Below, in pieces: positions 1 through 59,292 of a DNA stretch of 64,000 bases. Origin of the DNA: Candidatus Woesearchaeota archaeon (GTDB taxonomy: Archaea > Nanobdellota > Nanobdellia > Woesearchaeales > ARS49); assembly GCA_019322895.1 (NCBI GenBank), contig JAHWHZ010000001.1:266220-330219 (forward strand). The letters are read 5' to 3'. Both the position numbers and the translations under genes were made by a program. Under the pieces are notes generated by a model. That model searched no databases. It saw only the letters and a list, made by a program, of their open reading frames with translations, and was not told the origin of the DNA. The first letter of the stretch is position 1, and each line of letters opens with the position of its first letter.

Positions 1-172
1 GTATTAGTTGAACGAATATGATTTCTCACAGATAAATTTGTTGGCGCAAACTTATCAAAACCCCTCGTTCTGGAGAAAATTAAACTCAACCCACATATAA
101 ATATTTCGCAAGTCGAATGGATATGTGGCAAAATATAGATTAAAAAACACAAAACCAAAAGGGGGGATATAA

Positions 173-1240
173 ATGGACGTAATATTAGAAAAAGCAAAAC
201 AAGCAGACATGAACCTAGACGGCCTGAAAGTAGGGCAGGCAAACATAAAAGTGATTGGTGCCGGGGGCGGCGGTAATAATATGGTTACCTGGCTCTATAA
301 GAGAGGCATCAAAGGCGCAGAAATAATTGCTTGCAACACAGACAAGCAGCATTTGAATGTTTCTGAAGCAGATAAAAAATTCATAATCGGCAAAGAATGC
401 ACCCGCGGACTGGGCTGCGGTGGCTTTCCTCAAAAAGGAGCAGAAGCTGCCCAAGAGAGCATTGCTGAACTAAAGACAGTGCTTAAGGGTGCAGATATGA
501 CTTTTGTTTGCGCGGGATTAGGAGGTGGAACTGGCACTGGTGCTGCACCAGTAATTGCCCAGCTTGCAAAAGACATGGGCTCTATTGTAATAGGTACAGT
601 CACCATGCCGTTCAACATAGAACGCGCAAGGATTGAAAAAGCAGAATTCGGTCTTGAGCAATTAAGAAAATATTCTGACACTGTTATTGTTATTGACAAT
701 AACAGGCTGGTCACTATCGCAGGCAACCTGCCGATACAGCAGGCATTTGCAGTAGCAAATGAATTGATTGCAACGATGATCAAGGGAATTGTCGAGACAA
801 TCGCAATGCCAAGCTTGGTAAATCTGGATTATGCAGACGTCAAGACAATAATGACAAATGGCGGCGTTGCTGCCATAGGTGTAGGAAGCTCTGACACAAA
901 CAACAGAGTAGAAGAAGCAGTCAAGGGCGCTTTGGAAAACCCTCTGCTTGATATAGAGTATGCTGGCGCAACAGGCGCATTGATACATATCAGCGGCGGA
1001 CCTGACATGACTCTCGAGGAAATCAATAAAGTAGGAGAGCTTGTCACAGAAAGCCTTGACGATGATGCCAATGTAATCTGGGGAGCAAGAGTAGGCGAAG
1101 AGATGAAAGGAAAGCTGATGGTGATGACAATAATCACAGGCGTAAATTCACCTTGGATTATTGGAAAAGCCACTGAAACCAGCAAGGCTGCTGCAAAAGC
1201 AGAGCTTGAAGACGCATTAGGCATTGAAATCATAAACTGA
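173..1240 (+). CDS. ftsZ: Cell division GTPase FtsZ (tubulin/FtsZ family)
   Basis: 355-aa ORF with the tubulin/FtsZ glycine-rich signature GLGGGTGTGAAPVIA and overall FtsZ-like composition. A G-rich SD-like run (AGGGGGG) sits about 8 nt upstream of the ATG. Confidence 0.9.
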   Translation: MDVILEKAKQADMNLDGLKVGQANIKVIGAGGGGNNMVTWLYKRGIKGAEIIACNTDKQHLNVSEADKKFIIGKECTRGLGCGGFPQKGAEAAQESIAELKTVLKGADMTFVCAGLGGGTGTGAAPVIAQLAKDMGSIVIGTVTMPFNIERARIEKAEFGLEQLRKYSDTVIVIDNNRLVTIAGNLPIQQAFAVANELIATMIKGIVETIAMPSLVNLDYADVKTIMTNGGVAAIGVGSSDTNNRVEEAVKGALENPLLDIEYAGATGALIHISGGPDMTLEEINKVGELVTESLDDDANVIWGARVGEEMKGKLMVMTIITGVNSPWIIGKATETSKAAAKAELEDALGIEIIN

Positions 1241-2454: not shown

Positions 2455-3216
2455 ATGACACTATACTTCATAGGACTTGGATTAAATGACGAGAAAGACA
2501 TCACAGTAAAAGGTCTTAATCTTGTCAAGAAAGCAGATGTTGTCTATCTAGATAACTACACTGCTGTCCTTAACTGTCCTGTCAGCTATCTTGAGAAGCA
2601 ATATGAAAAGAAAATCATTCTTGCAGACAGGGATATGGTTGAGAAGAATCCTGAGAAAACAATATTAAAAGATGCAAAAGACAAGAATGTTGCTTTTCTT
2701 GTTGTCGGCGATCCTTTTGGAGCAACAACACATATGGATTTGTTGATGCGTGCAAAAAAAGCAGGAATCAAGACTCAGATTGTCCATAATGCCTCAATAA
2801 TCTCTGCTGTCGGAGTCACAGGATTGCAGGTTTACAAGTTTGGCAAGACAACAAGCATCCCGTTTCCTGAAAAAGGCTTTGAGCCAGAAACTCCTTATGA
2901 TGCAATTAAAGAGAATCAAAAGATCTGCCTGCATACATTATTGCTTCTGGACTTAAGGCCTAAAGAAAACAAGTTCATGACAATCAATGATGCAATAAAC
3001 ACTCTCTTGAAGATTGAGCTCAAAAGAAACGAGAAAGTCTTTACAAGAGACACTTTCTGCATCGGTTGTGCAAAGATTGGCTCTCTTGACCAAAAAATTA
3101 AAGCAGGAAAAGCTTCTGAGTTAATGAAAGCTGATTTTGGCCCTGGCCTGCACTGCCTGATTGTTCCAGGAAAGCTGCATTTTGCTGAGGAAGACGTTGT
3201 TAATCGGTTCTATTAA
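2455..3216 (+). CDS. dphB: Diphthine synthase (DphB, EF-2 diphthamide biosynthesis methyltransferase)
   Basis: N-terminus MTLYFIGLGLNDEKDITVKGL... matches the archaeal/eukaryotic diphthine synthase family. A TATA-like cctttttaaac lies about 25 nt upstream, suggesting a leaderless transcript. Confidence 0.85.
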   Translation: MTLYFIGLGLNDEKDITVKGLNLVKKADVVYLDNYTAVLNCPVSYLEKQYEKKIILADRDMVEKNPEKTILKDAKDKNVAFLVVGDPFGATTHMDLLMRAKKAGIKTQIVHNASIISAVGVTGLQVYKFGKTTSIPFPEKGFEPETPYDAIKENQKICLHTLLLLDLRPKENKFMTINDAINTLLKIELKRNEKVFTRDTFCIGCAKIGSLDQKIKAGKASELMKADFGPGLHCLIVPGKLHFAEEDVVNRFY

Positions 3217-4072
3217 ACTTTAAGCGATATAATCTTTTTCGAAAAAGCATCGCCTCTTTCTTATCTTTAAACGAATAGGATAATTTATTATTTTTTAAAA
3301 ATCGCAGGAGTTTATTGCAAAGAAATTTTTTAGTAAAACCTTTATTTACCGCGCCTTTATCTGAAATTTTAACGTTGGTAATGGGGCCCATAGCAGCAAT
3401 TTTTTGAACATCTTTAATTTTAGAAATTTCAATGCCTTGAAATATGCTCCAATTACGTTTATCCTGTTTTATTCTTGCGGATAAACCTAAGGATAAACAT
3501 AATCTTCTCATATCTGAAACTACAGACGGGTTTGTTTCAGCAATGCGAAATTCTGCTTCAAATTGTACTTGGTAGTATTGATACGTTTTATTTTTCTTTT
3601 TGTCTTTTTTTGACTTTAACTTAAATGTATAACAAAGACTGCCGCCAAAATCAAATAAAATCCTTAAAGCAAGTTGTTTTATAATAACTGATTCATCTAA
3701 TAAAAAAGACAAGGTAGGTTGCGGATTCTTGAGGTATTCGGATTTAGTCTGCAGTCCGGGGGTGGTTTTATAAGTGGGAGATAATGTCAATAACTCTTCT
3801 AGAGCATTTGCTGAATGCAATGTAGAAACAATAATTTTTTTATTGTCGCGCAAATAAACATAAAGCTTAGGTGTTTTATTAAATAAAGCCACACACAAAT
3901 ATTTAAACAGTAAATGCTGTTGTTTATTTCCAACTGTTAACAAGCGGATATATCTCTTTTTTGTATCCATGTATCCTTCAGCCAGAACAATAACTGCAAG
4001 TAATTTTAATTTCTGTACACGGCTCAACTTACTAAACTGTTTTAACATCATATTAAACAGCATACTGCTCAC
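3200..4072 (-). CDS. Free-standing LAGLIDADG-family homing endonuclease-like protein
   Basis: Two LAGLIDADG-like motifs: LLAVIVLAEGYMD and LALRILFDFGGSL. It lies between dphB and a tRNA gene and overlaps the dphB 3' end by 17 nt. Track start is GTG at 4072; the first ATG is at 4063. Confidence 0.55.
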   Translation of the reverse strand: MSSMLFNMMLKQFSKLSRVQKLKLLAVIVLAEGYMDTKKRYIRLLTVGNKQQHLLFKYLCVALFNKTPKLYVYLRDNKKIIVSTLHSANALEELLTLSPTYKTTPGLQTKSEYLKNPQPTLSFLLDESVIIKQLALRILFDFGGSLCYTFKLKSKKDKKKNKTYQYYQVQFEAEFRIAETNPSVVSDMRRLCLSLGLSARIKQDKRNWSIFQGIEISKIKDVQKIAAMGPITNVKISDKGAVNKGFTKKFLCNKLLRFLKNNKLSYSFKDKKEAMLFRKRLYRLKFNRTD

Positions 4073-4161
4073 ACATATTTAAATTTTACGGCGGTTCGAA
4101 AATTTTCCGAAAAGCTTAAAAGATACGGCCAGATTAGCCAATATTACGAGAATCAAGCAAC

Positions 4162-4267
4162 AGCCCTGTAGTGTAGTGGCCAATCATCGCGCACTTTGGA
4201 TGCGTGGACGGCGGAAAAGACACAGATTTGCTCTGTTCTTTGCCGATTTCGAATCCGCCCAGGGCTA
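4162..4267 (+). tRNA. tRNA-Gln (anticodon UUG) with a ~33-nt non-canonical intron in the T-arm (about 4215-4247)
   Basis: Acceptor stem AGCCCTG/CAGGGCT. D-arm GTGTAGTGGCCAATCATC is typical of archaeal tRNA-Gln. Anticodon stem GCGCA/TGCGT with loop CTTTGGA. T-stem GGCGG..CCGCC with T-loop TTCGAAT, interrupted by a 33-nt insert between the 5' T-stem and T-loop. Confidence 0.7.
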
Positions 4268-4300
4268 TTGATTCTCTAATATAAAACTGATTAATAGTCT

Positions 4301-4317
4301 GAATCCGCCCGGGCTAT
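4301..4317 (+). repeat. Direct duplicate of the tRNA-Gln 3' end (gaatccgcccgggctat), 33 nt downstream of the intact tRNA
   Basis: 17 of 18 nt identical to tRNA positions 4251-4268. This att-like partial tRNA duplication abuts the selU stop codon. Confidence 0.6.
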
Positions 4318-5328
4318 TTATTTTTCCAATTGACCGGTTATTCTTTTCAATTCTTTAATGCACTCAATCATATCATCATTGCAGACAGTGTATGAACACT
4401 CTGCCTGTTTTATCTGGTGTTCATATTTAGAATCATAATAATCCTGCAGTAAAATCTTAGAGACTTCTTCATAATTTTTTTCATCCATTAATTTAAGCAG
4501 ATCTTCAACAACTTTCTTGGTGAGGTACTGTTTTAGATAGACTATTATCTCTCTTATCTTGTCTTCTTCTCCATGTGTAAAATAATCTTTGACAATCTGT
4601 TTTGCTCTGTTTTCAATTGAACAATTCACCCTGACTGCAAGTCCTTGTTTCATTGCCTTAAACACAGAGTTAGGAATAAACACCCGGCCCACTTTATGGC
4701 TTTCTCCCTCAATAAACACAAATTTCTCTCCTTCCAACTCTTTCAATTTAGCAAACAAGAGGCTCTCAAACAGCTTTTGTTCTCTTGGATTCAGGCCGAT
4801 TGCACCGAAATTTGAGCTTCTGTGCTGTGCAAGCCCCTCTAAATCAATAGAAGGCACTAATTTCTTGATCAATTCTGTCTTTCCGCTTCCTGCCGAGCCG
4901 TAAAGAACAATGAATGTAAAAGGCGGTTCATAACTCTCTAATTGTGCCCGGATGTAGCTCCGGTAAGCACGGTATCCTCCTTCAAGCAGCAGGGCATCAA
5001 ATCCCAAATCTGCAACAAGTTTTGTTATGGTTTGCGAGCGCATCCCTCCACGCCAGCAATAAATGATTATTTTTTTATTCTTAGCAATATTTTTGAATTG
5101 CTCAGTCATGCGGGGCAATTTTTTATTATAATATTCATATCCTAATTTAATCGCTTTGTCAGGATTATCTTTATACATAATCCCCACTATTTTTCTTTCT
5201 TCAGTATCCAGAATAGGAATATTGATAGAGCCGGGAATCCTGTCTTTCTCAAACTCAACAGGGCTTCGGGTATCAATGACCACCTTATCTTTCAGCTTCA
5301 ATGCTTCCTCTACTGATATCTTCTGCAT
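4318..5328 (-). CDS. selU: tRNA 2-selenouridine synthase-like protein (SelU/MnmH; rhodanese + P-loop domains)
   Basis: Rhodanese active-site region YCWRGGMRSQ followed by LEGGYRAYRS. P-loop YGSAGSGKTE and IDLEGLAQHRSSNFG are co-linear with E. coli YbbB/SelU motifs. Confidence 0.75.
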   Translation of the reverse strand: MQKISVEEALKLKDKVVIDTRSPVEFEKDRIPGSINIPILDTEERKIVGIMYKDNPDKAIKLGYEYYNKKLPRMTEQFKNIAKNKKIIIYCWRGGMRSQTITKLVADLGFDALLLEGGYRAYRSYIRAQLESYEPPFTFIVLYGSAGSGKTELIKKLVPSIDLEGLAQHRSSNFGAIGLNPREQKLFESLLFAKLKELEGEKFVFIEGESHKVGRVFIPNSVFKAMKQGLAVRVNCSIENRAKQIVKDYFTHGEEDKIREIIVYLKQYLTKKVVEDLLKLMDEKNYEEVSKILLQDYYDSKYEHQIKQAECSYTVCNDDMIECIKELKRITGQLEK

Positions 5329-8475: not shown

Positions 8476-10341
8476 ATGCATTTAAAAATTCAAATGAATC
8501 TTAAAGATATCTTTTTTCCTCATGAAGAAATCCGGCCGATACAGGATGAGCTGATAAAACAAGTCTTGTCAGCGATTAATAACAAACAGAAATTGATTGT
8601 GCACGCCCCCACAGGCCTAGGCAAGACTGCAGCAACAATCGCTCCTGTGCTGGCTGCCACGCAATCCAAAGATGTCACTATTTTTTTCCTTACATCAAGG
8701 CATACGCAGCACAAGATTGTGATAGATACTTTGAGAGAAATCAAGAAAAAATATTCCTTGAATTTTATTGCGTCATCTATAATCGGAAAAAAATGGATGT
8801 GTCTCATGCCAAACACTGCATCCATGCGGTCTTCTGATTTTTTTGAGTTCTGTAAGGTATTGCGTAAAGACAGCAAGTGCGAGTTTTACGCGAATTCCAA
8901 GAAAAAGGTTCTGTTTAATAAAGTCCTTGAAGACATCCAGGCAATCTCACCTATTGCAACTGAAAAAATTGTTGAAATCTGCAAAGAAAAAAAGATATGT
9001 CCGTACGAGGTCGCGATAAAGCTTGCATCAAAATCAAAGATAATCATCTGTGATTACAATATCTTGTTTAATCCAAGCATAAGAGATAATTTTTTCTCAA
9101 AAACAAACAAGGAGCTTGCAAGCGCAATACTTATAATTGATGAAGGTCACAATCTTCCTGCAAGAATGAGTGATCTGCTGACTCAAAGATTGTCCAGCAG
9201 GATGATACAAAGAGGAACAAAAGAAGCAAAAAAATACGGGTTTGAAGAGCTTGTCATGCCTTTGTTTGAATTGAATGCAATTTTAACAAGATTGACTCAA
9301 GGCATGGGCAGTGAAGAAGAAAAGCTCGTCTCAAAAGAAACTTTTATCTCGCAGGTAAATAACATAAAGAATTACGCTGAATTGAGTGAAGAGCTTCAGT
9401 CAGCAGGAGAAGCTGTACTTGAAGAGCAGAAAAGAAGCGCATTGACTGCTGTCGCAAACTTCTTAGACAATTGGCCAAACGGGGATGTCGGTTTTTGCAG
9501 GAGCATATCAAACCAAGAGAAGAACATACTCCTGAATCACCGCTGCCTTGATCCTTCGCTGATCACAAAAGATGTTATTGATGCTGCATTCTCAACAATA
9601 ATGATGTCAGGAACATTATCTCCTGCAAATATGTATGCAGATCTGCTGGGCTTTCCTGAAGATACTATAAAAAAAGAGTTTCCTTCGCCTTTTCCAGAAA
9701 AGAATAGGCTAACACTGATTGTTCCAAAGACCACCACTAAGTTTACGCAGAGAAGCGATGCGCAGTTCAGTGCAATCGGCAAAGTGTGCAGCGACATCAT
9801 AAAAAATATCCCTGGAAATTCCGCGATTTACTTTCCAAGCTATCATCTCCGCGACGAAATTGCCAAGTTTTTTGAGCCAGAATGCGAAAAGACAATATTT
9901 TATGAGCAGCCTAAACTGACTAAAGAAGAAAAACAGGACTTGCTTAACAAATTCAGCAGCCACAAGAATGCAGTTCTTTTAGGTGTTGCTTCTGGCTCTT
10001 TTGGAGAAGGCATTGATTTGCCTGGCGTACTGAAGTGTGTCATAGTGGTCGGTCTTCCATTAGACAGGCCAGACCTTGAGACAAAAGAATTAATCAAGTA
10101 TTATGACAAGAAGTTCGGCAAAGGCTGGGACTATGGATATGTGATGCCTGCCTTGACAAGGACCATGCAGAATGCAGGAAGATGCATAAGAAGCAGCTCT
10201 GACAGGGGCGTCATCGTCTTTCTTGACCAAAGATATACCTGGCCAAATTATTTCAAGTGCTTTCCTTCTGACTGGAAATTAAGAATTACTTTGGATTATA
10301 TTTCTGAAATCAGGAGATTCTTTGAAAATCAAAAAGTTTAA
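8476..10341 (+). CDS. xpd: XPD/Rad3-family 5'-3' DNA helicase (FeS-cluster helicase)
   Basis: Walker A HAPTGLGKTAA, DEAH box IIDEGHNL, and four Cys consistent with the FeS domain. The track ORF starts at TTG 8377; the first ATG is at 8476. Confidence 0.8.
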   Translation: MHLKIQMNLKDIFFPHEEIRPIQDELIKQVLSAINNKQKLIVHAPTGLGKTAATIAPVLAATQSKDVTIFFLTSRHTQHKIVIDTLREIKKKYSLNFIASSIIGKKWMCLMPNTASMRSSDFFEFCKVLRKDSKCEFYANSKKKVLFNKVLEDIQAISPIATEKIVEICKEKKICPYEVAIKLASKSKIIICDYNILFNPSIRDNFFSKTNKELASAILIIDEGHNLPARMSDLLTQRLSSRMIQRGTKEAKKYGFEELVMPLFELNAILTRLTQGMGSEEEKLVSKETFISQVNNIKNYAELSEELQSAGEAVLEEQKRSALTAVANFLDNWPNGDVGFCRSISNQEKNILLNHRCLDPSLITKDVIDAAFSTIMMSGTLSPANMYADLLGFPEDTIKKEFPSPFPEKNRLTLIVPKTTTKFTQRSDAQFSAIGKVCSDIIKNIPGNSAIYFPSYHLRDEIAKFFEPECEKTIFYEQPKLTKEEKQDLLNKFSSHKNAVLLGVASGSFGEGIDLPGVLKCVIVVGLPLDRPDLETKELIKYYDKKFGKGWDYGYVMPALTRTMQNAGRCIRSSSDRGVIVFLDQRYTWPNYFKCFPSDWKLRITLDYISEIRRFFENQKV

Positions 10342-42941: not shown

Positions 42942-43058
42942 GGGGACGTAGTATAACCTGGCTATTATTTCCGGCTCCAGTCATGGAGCGATGAGCCGCA
43001 AGGCAATGATTACTATGGAAGATACCGGACGATCGGGGTTCAAATCCCTGCGTCCCCA
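42942..43058 (+). tRNA. tRNA-Trp (anticodon CCA) with a 43-nt intron at the canonical 37/38 position (about 42981-43023)
   Basis: Acceptor GGGGACG/CGTCCCC; anticodon stem TCCGG/CCGGA with loop CTCCAG|intron|A; T-arm CGGGG TTCAAAT CCCTG. The intron contains GATGA and TGAT motifs. Confidence 0.7.
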
Positions 43059-43079
43059 CTTATATTCAACAAGTGCAAA

Positions 43080-58687: not shown

Positions 58688-59292
58688 AAATACTATCACT
58701 ACTAAAAAAAGTGCCTATTGACTTAGGACAAGGAAATCTAAGGAGAACTACTAAAGGAAAATTAATTGCGCAGGCACTAATCCCAAGGGCAAGAGCGGGT
58801 ATGACTGCATTAGATGTCGGCTGCAGAGAAGGTCACCAAACAAGATACTTACGAAAAAAAGGATATAATGTAACATCAATAGATATTGAAAAAATAGTCC
58901 CCGAATGTATTGTAATGGATGCAAACAAAAAATTAAAATTTGAAGACAATAGTTTTGATTTAATTTGGGGCAGTGAAATTATTGAGCATCTTGATAATCC
59001 TGCTTTTTCTATCAGCGAATTCAAAAGAGTATTAAAACCAGGAGGAAGACTTATACTTACCACACCCAATAGTTATTTTTGTCTTGTTAGAGTAGCATAC
59101 ATTTTATTCAATCTATCCCCACGAAAGATTCAACGCAAAGATCATAAGCATTATTTTAATATTCAGAATATAAAACAATTATTTCCGCATGGCAGAATCT
59201 ATGGATTTTTCCCTTATTTACTTCTAAAATTCAAGATTAAAAGATTGGTTGGACTCTTGTCGCCAACATTTGTTATCTTGGATAAAAAATAA
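58684..59292 (+). CDS. Class I SAM-dependent methyltransferase
   Basis: LDVGCREGHQTRYL and LKPGGRLILTTPN motifs. Confidence 0.7.
   Translation: MKILSLLKKVPIDLGQGNLRRTTKGKLIAQALIPRARAGMTALDVGCREGHQTRYLRKKGYNVTSIDIEKIVPECIVMDANKKLKFEDNSFDLIWGSEIIEHLDNPAFSISEFKRVLKPGGRLILTTPNSYFCLVRVAYILFNLSPRKIQRKDHKHYFNIQNIKQLFPHGRIYGFFPYLLLKFKIKRLVGLLSPTFVILDKK

What the first reader, a model, noticed from the sequence alone, without database searches (positions are those of the whole stretch)
4162..4320. tRNA-Gln(UUG) with a non-canonical intron in the T-arm and an att-like duplicate of its 3' end 33 nt downstream
All tRNA-Gln parts are present, but 33 nt are inserted between the 5' T-stem (GGCGG) and the T-loop (TTCGAAT). 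This is a non-canonical intron position, as seen in some Thermoproteales and DPANN tRNAs, and would need a bulge-helix-bulge at the exon junction. Immediately downstream, 17 of 18 nt of the tRNA 3' end (gaatccgcccRgggctat) are repeated at 4301-4317 and overlap the selU stop. That is the classic scar of site-specific integration or excision at a tRNA gene. A free-standing LAGLIDADG endonuclease gene lies directly upstream (3200-4072).
Basis: partly seen in the sequence, partly recalled or inferred. Interest (0 to 1): 0.65.

Follow-up and report, generated by a model that had tools for sequence, protein, structure and literature searches.

The report
Split tRNA-Gln gene beside homing-endonuclease-like gene
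A glutamine tRNA gene of a tiny archaeon carries a genuine, conserved intron in an unusual place, next to a leftover copy of a tRNA end and a homing-endonuclease-like gene that accompanies this tRNA in related genomes, which may hint at how such introns spread.

Summary
Window 4162-4267 (+) is tRNA-Gln(UUG) interrupted by 33 nt (4215-4247) between positions 53 and 54. Standard detectors miss it, but the joined exons give a perfect cloverleaf.

The insert sits in a near-canonical bulge-helix-bulge (BHB) motif whose predicted cuts fall exactly on the exon borders. The same intron occurs in 9 other Woesearchaeota-type tRNA-Gln genes, and the central helix co-varies with the T-stem. Position 53/54 is already a known non-canonical site, so the intron is a new member of a known kind.

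The downstream repeat is real: 4301-4317 in this assembly, and 18 nt with one A-to-G change in two other assemblies. It is absent from all relatives. No integrase, element or third copy was found, so a classical att scar is not supported. It looks more like the stump of a displaced resident tRNA-Gln gene.

Three things were not in the finding:
- The upstream ORF has a LAGLIDADG fold.
- Its homologues lie within 300 nt of a tRNA-Gln gene in 11 of 11 lineages. Empty and filled sites occur in two genomic contexts.
- Eight of the nine lineages with the ORF divergent from, or lacking, an upstream tRNA-Gln keep a short copy of the uninterrupted T-arm junction (window 4088-4100) between the two promoters.

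A homing-type link between this gene and the T-arm intron is plausible but unproven.

The parts
4162..4214 (+). tRNA-Gln(UUG) exon 1 (positions 1-53): acceptor 5' strand, D-arm, anticodon arm (anticodon TTG), 4-nt variable loop, 5' strand of the T-stem (GGCGG)
   Evidence: Sequence. The joined exons give tRNA-Gln(ttg) in ARAGORN.
4215..4247 (+). 33-nt BHB intron at position 53/54. Inner hairpin AAAGA-C-ACAGA/UUUGC/UCUGU-UCUUU. GCCG (4242-4245) pairs with exon bases CGGC (4209-4212) to form the 4-bp central helix. The 3-nt bulges are GG|A and AU|U.
   Evidence: Covariation in 9 homologous introns: 91% of cells paired against 68% in shuffles, covariation score 0.594 against 0.185, 0 of 500 shuffles as high.
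4248..4267 (+). tRNA-Gln exon 2 (positions 54-73): T-loop TTCGAAT, T-stem 3' strand CCGCC, acceptor 3' strand CAGGGCT, discriminator A. CCA is not encoded.
4269..4300 (+). 32-nt spacer between the tRNA 3' end and the repeat. It contains no oligo-T terminator.
   Evidence: No significant similarity to the 3' flanks of related tRNA-Gln genes.
4301..4317 (+). Partial second copy of tRNA positions 57-73 (GAATCCGCCCGGGCTAT). It is GGGG in assemblies L121 and L122. It is followed by TTTATTTTT (to 4325), a likely shared terminator, and abuts the selU-like stop codon (4318-4320, minus strand).
   Evidence: Resembles the native 3' end plus T-run of dph5-linked tRNA-Gln in L066, L014 and L025.
4088..4100 (+). 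ACGGCGG|TTCGAA: a 13-nt copy of the uninterrupted (intron-less) exon1/exon2 junction, tRNA positions 47-59. It lies between the TATA-like box of the ORF and the BRE/TATA-like box of the tRNA.
   Evidence: Best non-self match of the spliced tRNA in the whole window. A conserved block TTWCGNNGGTTCGAA sits at the same place in 8 ORF-bearing lineages.
3200..4072 (-). Free-standing two-motif LAGLIDADG-fold ORF of 290 aa. The likely start is ATG at 4048. Motif 1 is LAEG (E32). Motif 2 is FDFGGS, with the catalytic Asp143 replaced by Gly in this copy only.
   Evidence: Pfam sub-threshold hit. 12 database hits, 11 of them distinct homologues at 41-88% identity. AF2 pLDDT 91. Foldseek top 50 PDB hits all LAGLIDADG fold. 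Absent from the orthologous dph5-tRNA-Gln spacer of L066, L014 and L025.
4107..4125 (+). Putative BRE/TATA promoter of the tRNA gene (CCGAAAAGCTTAAAAGATA)
   Evidence: Conserved block AGAAAG-TTTAA-AA in alignment A4. The promoter role is inferred.
2455..3216 (+). Diphthine-synthase-like gene (TP_methylase). Ancestral upstream neighbour of tRNA-Gln. Its 3' end overlaps the ORF's 3' end by 17 nt.
4318..5328 (-). Rhodanese + AAA_SelU gene (tRNA 2-selenouridine-synthase-like), convergent with the tRNA

Best explanation
1. The intron (shown; about 0.95). Window 4162-4267 is a functional tRNA-Gln(UUG) gene of a Woesearchaeota archaeon. It is interrupted at position 53/54 by a 33-nt intron of the archaeal BHB type. 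In the precursor, exon bases 48-51 (CGGC) pair with intron bases -6 to -3 (GCCG). Two 3-nt bulges flank this 4-bp helix. The splicing endonuclease EndA would cut after the second bulge base on each strand. That is exactly at the exon borders. A ligase would then join the exons so that the T-arm can form.

2. The ORF cassette (presence/absence shown; mobility inferred; about 0.6). The gene sits in a roughly 1.1-kb insertion between dph5 and the selU-like gene. The insertion also carries a free-standing LAGLIDADG-fold ORF and a short copy of the uninterrupted T-arm junction (4088-4100). This ORF family accompanies tRNA-Gln genes in every lineage examined. It is present or absent at otherwise orthologous sites. 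It therefore behaves as a tRNA-Gln-associated mobile or formerly mobile cassette.

3. The downstream repeat (inferred; about 0.45). Copy 4301-4317 with its oligo-T run is most likely the 3' stump and terminator of the resident dph5-linked tRNA-Gln gene. The stump would have been displaced when the cassette, together with the current tRNA gene, was inserted. The break or joint lies in the T-loop, 3 nt from the intron site.
For: Intron.
- The joined exons give a canonical tRNA-Gln.
- The BHB geometry predicts both borders independently.
- Nine further genes carry an intron at 53/54, or at 52/53 in L143.
- Their central-helix sequences differ (CGGC/GCCG, CCTC/GAGG, CGGA/TCCG, CGGA/TTCG, CCGC/GTGG, CCCA/TGGG, ACCC/GGGT).
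- In alignment A3, 3 of the 4 central pairs show changes on both sides. 91% of cells pair against 68% in shuffles. The slid controls reach at most 58%.
- Position 53/54 is listed among known non-canonical sites (PMC4090602).
- Disrupted tRNA genes are known to be frequent in DPANN archaea, including Woesearchaeota (PMC5829648).

Cassette.
- dph5 is followed directly by tRNA-Gln in L066, L014 and L025, with no ORF between them.
- An orthologous kinase (49-55% identity) is followed directly by tRNA-Gln in L130, L133 and L135. In L139, L143 and L144 the ORF lies between kinase and tRNA.
- 11 of 11 ORF lineages lie within 300 nt of a tRNA-Gln gene.
- 7 of those 11 tRNA-Gln genes have the T-arm intron. 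None of 120 intron-bearing tRNA-Gln(UUG) genes in the reference-genome scan has one.
- The ORF has a LAGLIDADG fold.
- Both acidic motif residues are kept in all 11 homologues.

Stump.
- The repeat plus flank, CGGG(G)CTATTTATTTTT, resembles the native ends CGGGGCTATTTT... of L066, L014 and L025.
- G67 in L121 and L122 fits the C6-G67 acceptor pair of those relatives.
- The current gene has no T-run of its own before the repeat.
Against: - No RNA data exist, so splicing is inferred.
- The outer BHB helix is only 2 bp.
- The repeat shares the T-stem strand CCGCC with the current gene, whereas the dph5-linked relatives have CCGAG or CCGGG. A recent local duplication of the current 3' end is therefore not excluded.
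- Neither the mature tRNA sequence nor the 32-nt spacer shows which lineage the current gene came from.
- The left part of any displaced gene (positions 1-46) is not detectable.
- The repeat is found only in this organism.
- Four ORF-bearing lineages (L141, L145, L146, L150) have no T-arm intron.
- Three intron-bearing lineages (L129, L130/L133, L135) have no ORF. The link between ORF and intron is thus statistical, not obligatory.
- The ORF-bearing loci were found through the ORF, so the enrichment estimate is biased by how the loci were ascertained.
- The window's ORF has lost one catalytic Asp.
Confidence: 0.55

Rival explanations
1. Classical att scar. An integrase-encoding virus or plasmid integrated into the 3' part of tRNA-Gln. 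It supplied the present 3' end and pushed the original to the far side. The element was later almost entirely deleted, leaving 32 nt between attL and attR.
For: The identity block runs from the T-loop (G57) to 1-2 nt beyond the 3' end. From my own knowledge of tRNA-targeting integrases, that is the shape typical of T-loop-class att cores. The repeat is far beyond chance. tRNA genes are known integration targets in archaea (PMC4090602, PMC3293823). In L152 a primase and serine-recombinase gene cluster lies just 3' of a related tRNA-Gln.
Against: Only 32 nt lie between the copies. The 10 largest ORFs of 1-11.9 kb, scanned against Pfam, include no integrase (searches list the ORFs and called genes). 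There is no third copy in 64 kb. Viral contigs contain neither junction sequence. The only matches to the 3'-end sequence there are complete tRNA genes. No relative has a repeat or an element at this spot. L152 has no tRNA-derived repeat.
Confidence: 0.1
2. Local duplication. The 3' end of the present gene was copied about 50 nt downstream by replication slippage or templated repair. This would be unrelated to any incoming DNA, and the LAGLIDADG neighbour would be incidental to the repeat.
For: The copy shares the lineage-specific T-stem strand CCGCC with the current gene. The two copies differ at one position only. Weak similarity continues into the flank, 70% over 30 nt.
Against: A simple tandem duplication would place the copies adjacent or would duplicate the spacer as well. 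The spacer is not repeated. The copy carries the oligo-T run that the current gene lacks, and its G67 matches the relatives' native ends.
Confidence: 0.27
3. Domesticated regulator. The LAGLIDADG protein is not, or no longer, a nuclease. It would be a WhiA-like DNA-binding factor that recognises the GGTTCGAA-containing element between the divergent promoters and controls tRNA-Gln and its own expression. Its linkage to tRNA-Gln would then be functional rather than selfish.
For: WhiA structures appear among the fold matches (8dy9_I, 3hyi). The junction-like element is conserved between two promoters across lineages whose ORFs share only 41-47% identity. Many non-catalytic residues of the protein are conserved. 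The window copy lacks one catalytic Asp.
Against: Eleven homologues keep both catalytic acidic residues. The ORF shows presence/absence at orthologous sites in two contexts. L146 and L149 lack the intact element.
Confidence: 0.2
4. Pseudogene. The 33-nt insert is a disruption and the locus is a dead tRNA gene.
For: Standard detectors do not call it.
Against: All stems are intact and the BHB register is exact. Ten lineages conserve the arrangement with compensatory changes. The promoter block is conserved.
Confidence: 0.03

Closest known systems
Archaeal non-canonical BHB tRNA introns (Marck & Grosjean 2003; Sugahara et al. 2008; reviewed in PMC4090602 and PMC4033280; DPANN survey in PMC5829648)
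   Same: A short ORF-less intron outside position 37/38. It is defined by a bulge-helix-bulge motif formed between exon and intron. Position 53/54 is among the listed sites. Related Woesearchaeota tRNA-Gln genes (L137, L139, L144, L151) carry up to three introns, as in Thermoproteales.
   Different: This is a conserved 53/54 intron specifically in tRNA-Gln (UUG and CUG) of Woesearchaeota-type genomes. It is linked to a protein-coding neighbour. I found no description of this case in the papers I searched.
tRNA-Thr locus of Caldiarchaeum subterraneum: intron gain plus a scattered tRNA fragment through a mobile element (Sugahara et al. 2012, PMC3293823)
   Same: An intron-containing tRNA gene with a fragment of an older or alternative copy of the same tRNA nearby. 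The two are separated by DNA that encodes a DNA-acting enzyme and varies between genomes.
   Different: There the fragment is a 5' piece lying 1.8 kb away, and the enzyme is a recombinase on a repeated element. Here the pieces are a 3' stump 33 nt away and a 13-nt junction copy, and the enzyme is LAGLIDADG-like and always tied to tRNA-Gln.
Collaborative homing: a free-standing homing endonuclease next to an ORF-less intron (F-CphI and the psbA intron of cyanophage S-PM2, PMC6083498; T4 mobE and I-TevIII, PMC2790892)
   Same: A free-standing endonuclease-type gene lies immediately beside a gene whose ORF-less intron interrupts a highly conserved sequence. A copy of the uninterrupted junction sequence exists. 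Both ORF and intron show presence/absence variation.
   Different: Those systems involve self-splicing group I introns in phage protein genes, and cleavage at the intron insertion site has been demonstrated. Here the intron is protein-spliced (BHB), the host gene is a cellular tRNA, and no cleavage has been tested. Four ORF-bearing lineages lack the intron.
Archaeal intron-encoded LAGLIDADG endonucleases (I-Tsp061I, I-DmoI) and the domesticated WhiA
   Same: A two-domain LAGLIDADG fold. The best structural match is I-Tsp061I from an archaeal rRNA BHB intron.
   Different: Not intron-encoded. No detectable sequence similarity to solved structures. TM-scores are only 0.4-0.5. There is no HTH extension as in WhiA.
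tRNA-gene att sites of archaeal integrative elements (SSV-type and pNOB8-type)
   Same: A direct repeat of the 3' part of a tRNA gene just downstream of the gene.
   Different: No integrase and no element between the repeats. The repeat is 17-18 nt, not about 40 nt or more.

Membership tests
Archaeal BHB (EndA-spliced) tRNA intron at a non-canonical position | Removing the insert restores a canonical cloverleaf with all conserved tRNA features | tested here: met
   ARAGORN calls tRNA-Gln(ttg) on the joined exons. The stems were also checked by hand.
Archaeal BHB (EndA-spliced) tRNA intron at a non-canonical position | Two 3-nt bulges on opposite strands, separated by a 4-bp helix and flanked by helices, with the cut after the second bulge base falling on both exon borders | tested here: met
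   CGGC/GCCG helix. Bulges GG|A and AU|U. Inner helix of 5+5 bp. The outer helix is only 2 bp (A-U, G-C).
Archaeal BHB (EndA-spliced) tRNA intron at a non-canonical position | Structure maintained by compensatory change in homologues | tested here: met
   In alignment A3, 91% of cells pair. 7 of the 10 pairs show changes on both sides. The covariation score is 0.594 against 0.185, with 0 of 500 shuffles as high. The slid controls reach at most 58%.
Archaeal BHB (EndA-spliced) tRNA intron at a non-canonical position | Intron removed in vivo by EndA and the exons ligated | not testable with these tools
   No transcript data. The EndA gene of this genome was not looked for.
Integrase-mediated att scar at a tRNA gene | Direct repeat of the tRNA 3' segment | tested here: met
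Integrase-mediated att scar at a tRNA gene | Integrase gene and mobile-element DNA between or beside the repeats | tested here: not met
   The spacer is 32 nt. None of the 10 largest ORFs of 1-11.9 kb is a recombinase by Pfam (searches list the ORFs and called genes).
Integrase-mediated att scar at a tRNA gene | Matching attP in a virus or plasmid, or an occupied site in a relative | tested here: not met
   Viral-contig scans gave only complete tRNA genes or nothing. Relatives lack the repeat. The search covered IMG/VR by exact match only.
LAGLIDADG homing endonuclease | LAGLIDADG alpha-beta-beta-alpha-beta-beta-alpha double-domain fold | tested here: met
   AF2 pLDDT 91, pTM 0.87. The top 50 Foldseek PDB hits are all LAGLIDADG proteins at probability 1.00, with TM 0.35-0.50.
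LAGLIDADG homing endonuclease | Acidic catalytic residue at the end of each LAGLIDADG helix | tested here: inconclusive
   Motif 1 has E32-G33, which is acceptable. In motif 2, D143 is Gly in the window copy but Asp in all 11 homologues.
LAGLIDADG homing endonuclease | Presence/absence polymorphism at a defined genomic site | tested here: met
   Empty and filled sites in the dph5 context and in the kinase context.
LAGLIDADG homing endonuclease | Site-specific cleavage of the allele that lacks the element | not testable with these tools
   Needs biochemistry.
Collaborative homing (free-standing endonuclease plus ORF-less intron) | The endonuclease cuts the intron-less allele at the intron insertion site, and the intron confers immunity | not testable with these tools
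   Indirect evidence only. A junction-like element lies next to the ORF. 7 of 11 neighbouring tRNA-Gln genes carry the intron. The 4 without it have T-stems that differ from the CGCGG consensus of the element.

The most novel reading that the evidence does not exclude
A family of free-standing LAGLIDADG endonuclease genes in Woesearchaeota homes to tRNA-Gln genes by recognising the uninterrupted T-arm DNA around position 53/54. The short BHB intron at exactly that junction would protect the host's own gene and travel with the endonuclease gene. This would be 'collaborative homing' between a protein-spliced archaeal intron and a nuclease. The conserved junction-like element between the two promoters would be a retained half-target, acting as an operator or marking the cassette border. 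The 3' stump at 4301-4317 would mark a break in the T-loop of the invaded resident gene. If so, this is a concrete DNA-level mechanism for how non-canonical tRNA introns are gained and spread in archaea.
Probability: 0.25. Interest if true: 0.85.

Novelty: new variant of a known kind. Interest (0 to 1): 0.6.

Why it matters
BHB introns at non-canonical tRNA positions are well documented, but how they arise and move is still called unknown in reviews (PMC4090602). The existing ideas are integration of mobile elements (PMC3293823) and protection against integration (the Randau & Söll proposal, cited in PMC4090602).

This locus and its relatives offer a tractable case. One tRNA species carries one intron position. 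One nuclease-like gene family is always beside it. Orthologous empty and filled sites exist. A conserved copy of the uninterrupted junction lies next to the ORF, and in this organism a leftover 3' end remains.

Cleavage and binding assays with a few synthetic proteins and oligonucleotides would show whether a homing-type mechanism drives this intron.

On the practical side, such tRNA genes are missed by default tRNA finders. That contributes to the apparently incomplete tRNA sets reported for DPANN genomes (PMC5829648).

Tried and rejected
- Default detectors. ARAGORN in default mode, Rfam at gathering thresholds, and an Rfam E-value scan of 4050-4400 found no tRNA call. ARAGORN's intron mode only handles anticodon-loop introns. 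It found tRNA-Trp but not tRNA-Gln, and at a lowered threshold it produced AT-rich false positives, for example 59123-59202.
- A home-made acceptor/T-loop scan for further split tRNAs was far too permissive and was dropped.
- Two adjacent variable gaps in one search pattern are not accepted.
The window's own genome was not among them, so that scan says little about close relatives.
- Viral-contig scans for the tRNA 3' end, for both spacer junctions and for the ORF family found no att partner, no junction and no relative.
- Sequence searches of the ORF and of its family profile against PDB gave nothing. Only the fold comparison identified it.
- I looked for a tRNA-derived direct repeat around the primase and serine-recombinase cluster next to the L152 tRNA-Gln. 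There is none.
- I tested whether the mature tRNA or the 32-nt spacer resembles the kinase-linked rather than the dph5-linked tRNA-Gln lineage. There is no discriminating signal: 65 of 74 against 63 of 74 identical columns, and the trailers score no better than shuffles.
- I considered that fragments 4088-4100 and 4301-4317, which overlap by GAA and together rebuild a contiguous 3' part (positions 47-75), are the two halves of one old gene split by a 200-bp insertion. I set this aside as a main model. The upstream fragment occupies the same cassette position in lineages that have no downstream copy. It cannot be excluded for this lineage.
- A hairpin or terminator role for the repeat on the selU strand was rejected. 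GCCCGGGC has no loop, and the palindrome is imperfect in L121 and L122.
Full report
**1. What is at the coordinates**

The window reads AGCCCTG TA GTGT AGTGGCCAA TCAT C GCGCA CTTTGGA TGCGT GGAC GGCGG (4162-4214). Then come 33 nt, AAAAGACACAGATTTGCTCTGTTCTTTGCCGAT (4215-4247). Then TTCGAAT CCGCC CAGGGCT A (4248-4267).

ARAGORN as offered, Rfam at gathering thresholds, and an E-value scan of 4050-4400 report no tRNA here. When the two outer parts are joined, ARAGORN returns a canonical tRNA-Gln(UUG). The anticodon loop is uninterrupted, so no alternative with a 37/38 intron exists. The borders cannot slide, because the flanking bases differ.

**2. Is it a spliceable intron?**

From established knowledge of archaeal splicing, EndA recognises two 3-nt bulges separated by a 4-bp helix and cuts after the second bulge base on each strand. 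I applied that rule to the borders dictated by the cloverleaf:
- Exon bases C4209-C4212 (CGGC) are perfectly complementary to intron bases G4242-G4245 (GCCG).
- The bulges are G4213 G4214|A4215 and A4246 U4247|U4248.
- The rest of the intron forms a hairpin (AAAGA-C-ACAGA, loop UUUGC, UCUGU-UCUUU).
- The outer helix is short (A4208-U4249, G4207-C4250).

The unconstrained MFE fold of the precursor contains the same helices. Two independent criteria, the cloverleaf and the BHB geometry, therefore select the same two phosphodiester bonds.

**3. Relatives**

A pattern scan of reference genomes looked for tRNA-Gln(UUG) with extra sequence between G37 and T54. All had introns at the canonical position. 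They came from haloarchaea, Methanomicrobia and several Woesearchaeota.

A second pattern required an intact anticodon arm and extra sequence before the T-loop. It found 13 metagenome loci. Four of these (three lineages: L129 with anticodon CUG, L130 = L133, and L135) have a 30-31-nt intron at 53/54.

Six more cases came from the neighbours of the ORF family described below. L137, L139, L144, L149 and L151 have the intron at 53/54. L143 has it at 52/53 with the BHB register shifted by one.

The T-stem differs between lineages (GGCGG, CTCGG, GGAGG, CGCGG, GGAAG, CCAGG), and the intron segment that pairs with it changes accordingly. Nine sequences were aligned on the BHB core:
- 91% of cells pair, against 68% in shuffles.
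- Three of the four central pairs, and all four inner pairs, show changes on both sides.
- The covariation score is 0.594 against 0.185, with 0 of 500 shuffles as high.
- Sliding the partner by one to three columns drops pairing to 24-58%.

The intron is therefore real, old and under structural constraint. Position 53/54 is already listed among non-canonical sites (PMC4090602). DPANN archaea, including Woesearchaeota, are known to have many disrupted tRNA genes (PMC5829648). As an intron, this is a new member of a known kind.

**4. The downstream repeat**

GAATCCGCCCAGGGCTAT (4251-4268) recurs at 4301-4317 as GAATCCGCCCGGGCTAT. No other copy exists in 64 kb on either strand, and about 0.01 would be expected by chance.

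The identical selU-like protein occurs on eight public contigs. In two of the three retrieved (L121, L122) the copy reads GAATCCGCCCGGGGCTAT. That is the full 18 nt with A67 changed to G. The third (L123) equals the window.

The repeat is absent downstream of every related tRNA-Gln examined. The tests of the att model were negative:
- Only 32 nt lie between the copies.
- The 10 largest ORFs of 1-11.9 kb were scanned against Pfam. They are FtsZ, a PDZ protein, a diphthine-synthase-like gene, the ORF, the selU-like gene, two NUDIX genes, an unknown, XPD and Trm1. The gene calls of L121 add an S15 gene and an HTH gene. None is a recombinase.
- Exact-match scans of viral contigs for the 3' end and for both spacer junctions gave only complete tRNA genes or nothing.

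**5. A different geometry for the scar**

In two other Woesearchaeota (L066, L014) and a Methanosarcinales genome (L025), the diphthine-synthase gene is followed after 60-85 nt by tRNA-Gln. That gene ends CGGGGCTATTTT..., a native 3' end plus oligo-T terminator.

In the window, 946 bp carrying the ORF lie between dph5 and the tRNA. The present gene has no T-run after its 3' end. The downstream copy reads CGGG(G)CTATTTATTTTT. The simplest reading is that the copy is the stump and terminator of the resident dph5-linked gene, and that the present gene arrived with the inserted DNA.

I rate this at about 0.45. The stump shares CCGCC with the present gene, which would also fit a recent local duplication (about 0.27). 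Neither the mature sequence nor the spacer reveals a donor lineage.

**6. The neighbouring ORF**

ORF 3200-4072 (-) scores below threshold for Pfam LAGLIDADG_3 and has no sequence match in PDB. The database search returned 12 hits. P0001 is the window protein itself. The other 11 are 41-88% identical, and one of them is annotated Nanoarchaeota.

The family alignment shows two LAGLIDADG-like motifs, LAxxxLSDG and FDFDGS. AlphaFold with this alignment gives pLDDT 91. The top 50 Foldseek hits listed from PDB are all LAGLIDADG proteins, led by the archaeal intron-encoded I-Tsp061I.

In the window copy alone, the second catalytic Asp is Gly (FDFGGS). From the known mechanism, this copy would at best nick DNA.

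**7. The ORF always accompanies tRNA-Gln**

I retrieved DNA for ten further family members. In every one, as in the window, a tRNA-Gln gene lies within 300 nt of the ORF.
- In L137, L139/L140, L143, L144, L145, L150 and L151 the arrangement is the same as here, divergent with tRNA-Gln(UUG).
- In L141 and L149 a tRNA-Gln(CUG) follows the ORF on the same strand.
- In L146 an intron-less tRNA-Gln(UUG) precedes the ORF on the same strand.

Seven of the eleven neighbouring genes carry the T-arm intron. L141, L145, L146 and L150 do not.

The wider gene contexts differ: dph5/selU-like, ribosomal S15 and a kinase with SRP54, NUDIX/DUF498, and a primase cluster. A second empty/filled pair exists. An orthologous kinase (49-55% identity) is followed directly by tRNA-Gln in L130, L133 and L135. 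In L139, L143 and L144 the ORF lies between kinase and tRNA. The ORF thus behaves as a variably present cassette tied to tRNA-Gln.

**8. A conserved junction-like element**

The best non-self match of the spliced tRNA anywhere in the window is ACGGCGG|TTCGAA at 4088-4100. This is positions 47-59 without the intron. It lies between a TATA-like box for the ORF and the BRE/TATA-like box of the tRNA.

The same block (TTWCGNNGGTTCGAA) occupies the same place in eight lineages. It is one of only three conserved blocks in otherwise diverged AT-rich spacers. A shorter form lies upstream of the L141 ORF, which has no tRNA upstream.
- In the window and L137 it equals the local tRNA in 13 of 13 positions. 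In L145 it matches in 12 of 13. These three tRNAs have different T-stems.
- In L139, L143 and L144 it keeps a CGCGG-like form that does not match the local T-stem.
- In L146 and L149 it is truncated after GGTT by another repeated sequence.

Its conservation argues for function. A binding site for the LAGLIDADG protein, or the retained edge of its target, are the obvious candidates. Neither was tested.

**9. Mechanism and likelihoods**

Shown:
- the intron and its BHB motif;
- the repeat and its population variant;
- the LAGLIDADG fold;
- the universal ORF/tRNA-Gln linkage;
- the empty and filled sites;
- the conserved element.

Inferred:
- splicing by EndA (0.95);
- the cassette being mobile or formerly mobile (0.6);
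- the repeat as a resident stump (0.45);
- homing to the uninterrupted T-arm with the intron as immunity (0.25).

The last reading parallels collaborative homing in phages (PMC6083498, PMC2790892). It would also extend the Caldiarchaeum model of intron gain through mobile DNA (PMC3293823). Three things count against it:
- four ORF lineages have no T-arm intron, although their T-stems all differ from the CGCGG consensus of the element;
- three intron lineages have no ORF;
- there are no biochemical data.

**10. Verdict**

The intron interpretation is confirmed and is ordinary in kind. The att interpretation is only partly supported.

The surrounding module is, as far as my literature searches show, undescribed. 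It comprises the LAGLIDADG gene, the junction-like element, the T-arm intron, and here a 3' stump. That module is the part worth following up.

Noticed in passing
window 42942-43059 (+): tRNA-Trp(CCA) with a 43-nt intron in the anticodon loop. It was found only with ARAGORN's intron mode. The intron contains GATGAG and ATGATT box-C-like strings, which recall the box C/D guide in euryarchaeal tRNA-Trp introns. Both tRNA genes found in the window are therefore interrupted.
   Followed up: partly
window 4088-4100 (+): A 13-nt copy of the uninterrupted tRNA-Gln junction (positions 47-59) between the ORF and tRNA promoters. It overlaps by GAA with the start of the downstream copy, so the two pieces together rebuild a contiguous intron-less 3' part (positions 47-75).
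   Followed up: yes
window 3644-3646 (-), residue 143 of the ORF: The catalytic Asp of the second LAGLIDADG motif is Gly in this organism only (FDFGGS against FDFDGS in 11 homologues). This suggests a decaying or nickase-type copy.
   Followed up: partly
window 4310-4313; L121 7016-7019; L122 1632-1635: A G-run length difference (GGG against GGGG) inside the downstream repeat between assemblies of the same organism from different samples. It could be a real polymorphism or a homopolymer assembly difference.
   Followed up: partly
L137/L152 about 9700-9930 (-); L139 about 3750-3900 (-); L144; L151: Related tRNA-Gln(UUG) genes carry three introns each (D-arm or acceptor region, the canonical site, and the T-arm). 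The L137 gene also encodes CCA.
   Followed up: partly
L152 1518-9691: Directly 3' of the L152 tRNA-Gln lies a cluster with an 1179-aa Toprim/PriCT primase, many small unknown ORFs and a serine recombinase (Resolvase + HTH). It looks like an integrated element, but no tRNA-derived direct repeat was found.
   Followed up: partly
L100, L125/L132, L127/L134, L128, L131, L136: Intron-less tRNA-Gln genes of other archaea are followed after 12-20 nt by a second (G)TTCGAATCC or TTCAAATCC string. These may be stumps of other tRNA genes or chance. The search pattern selected for them.
   Followed up: no
L146 about 900-960 and L149 about 130-220 (minus strand of the loci): The junction-like element is cut after GGTT by a shared sequence, GGTTGTCCAGT(T)GACCAGTG. 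It occurs twice in L149 and may be a small repeat element.
   Followed up: no
L148 (IMGVR_UViG_3300017963_000032) 582-2429: A 79-kb contig classed as viral carries an array of 13 tRNA genes, three of them with anticodon-loop introns (Ile, Arg, Trp). Its tRNA-Gln 3' part (ACGGCGGTTCGAATCCGCCCGGGGCTAT) equals the sequence rebuilt from the window's two fragments.
   Followed up: no
window 3200-3216: The ORF and the convergent diphthine-synthase-like gene overlap by 17 nt at their 3' ends. In L143 and L144 the ORF ends 8-12 nt from the neighbouring kinase gene. The insertions are very tightly packed.
   Followed up: no
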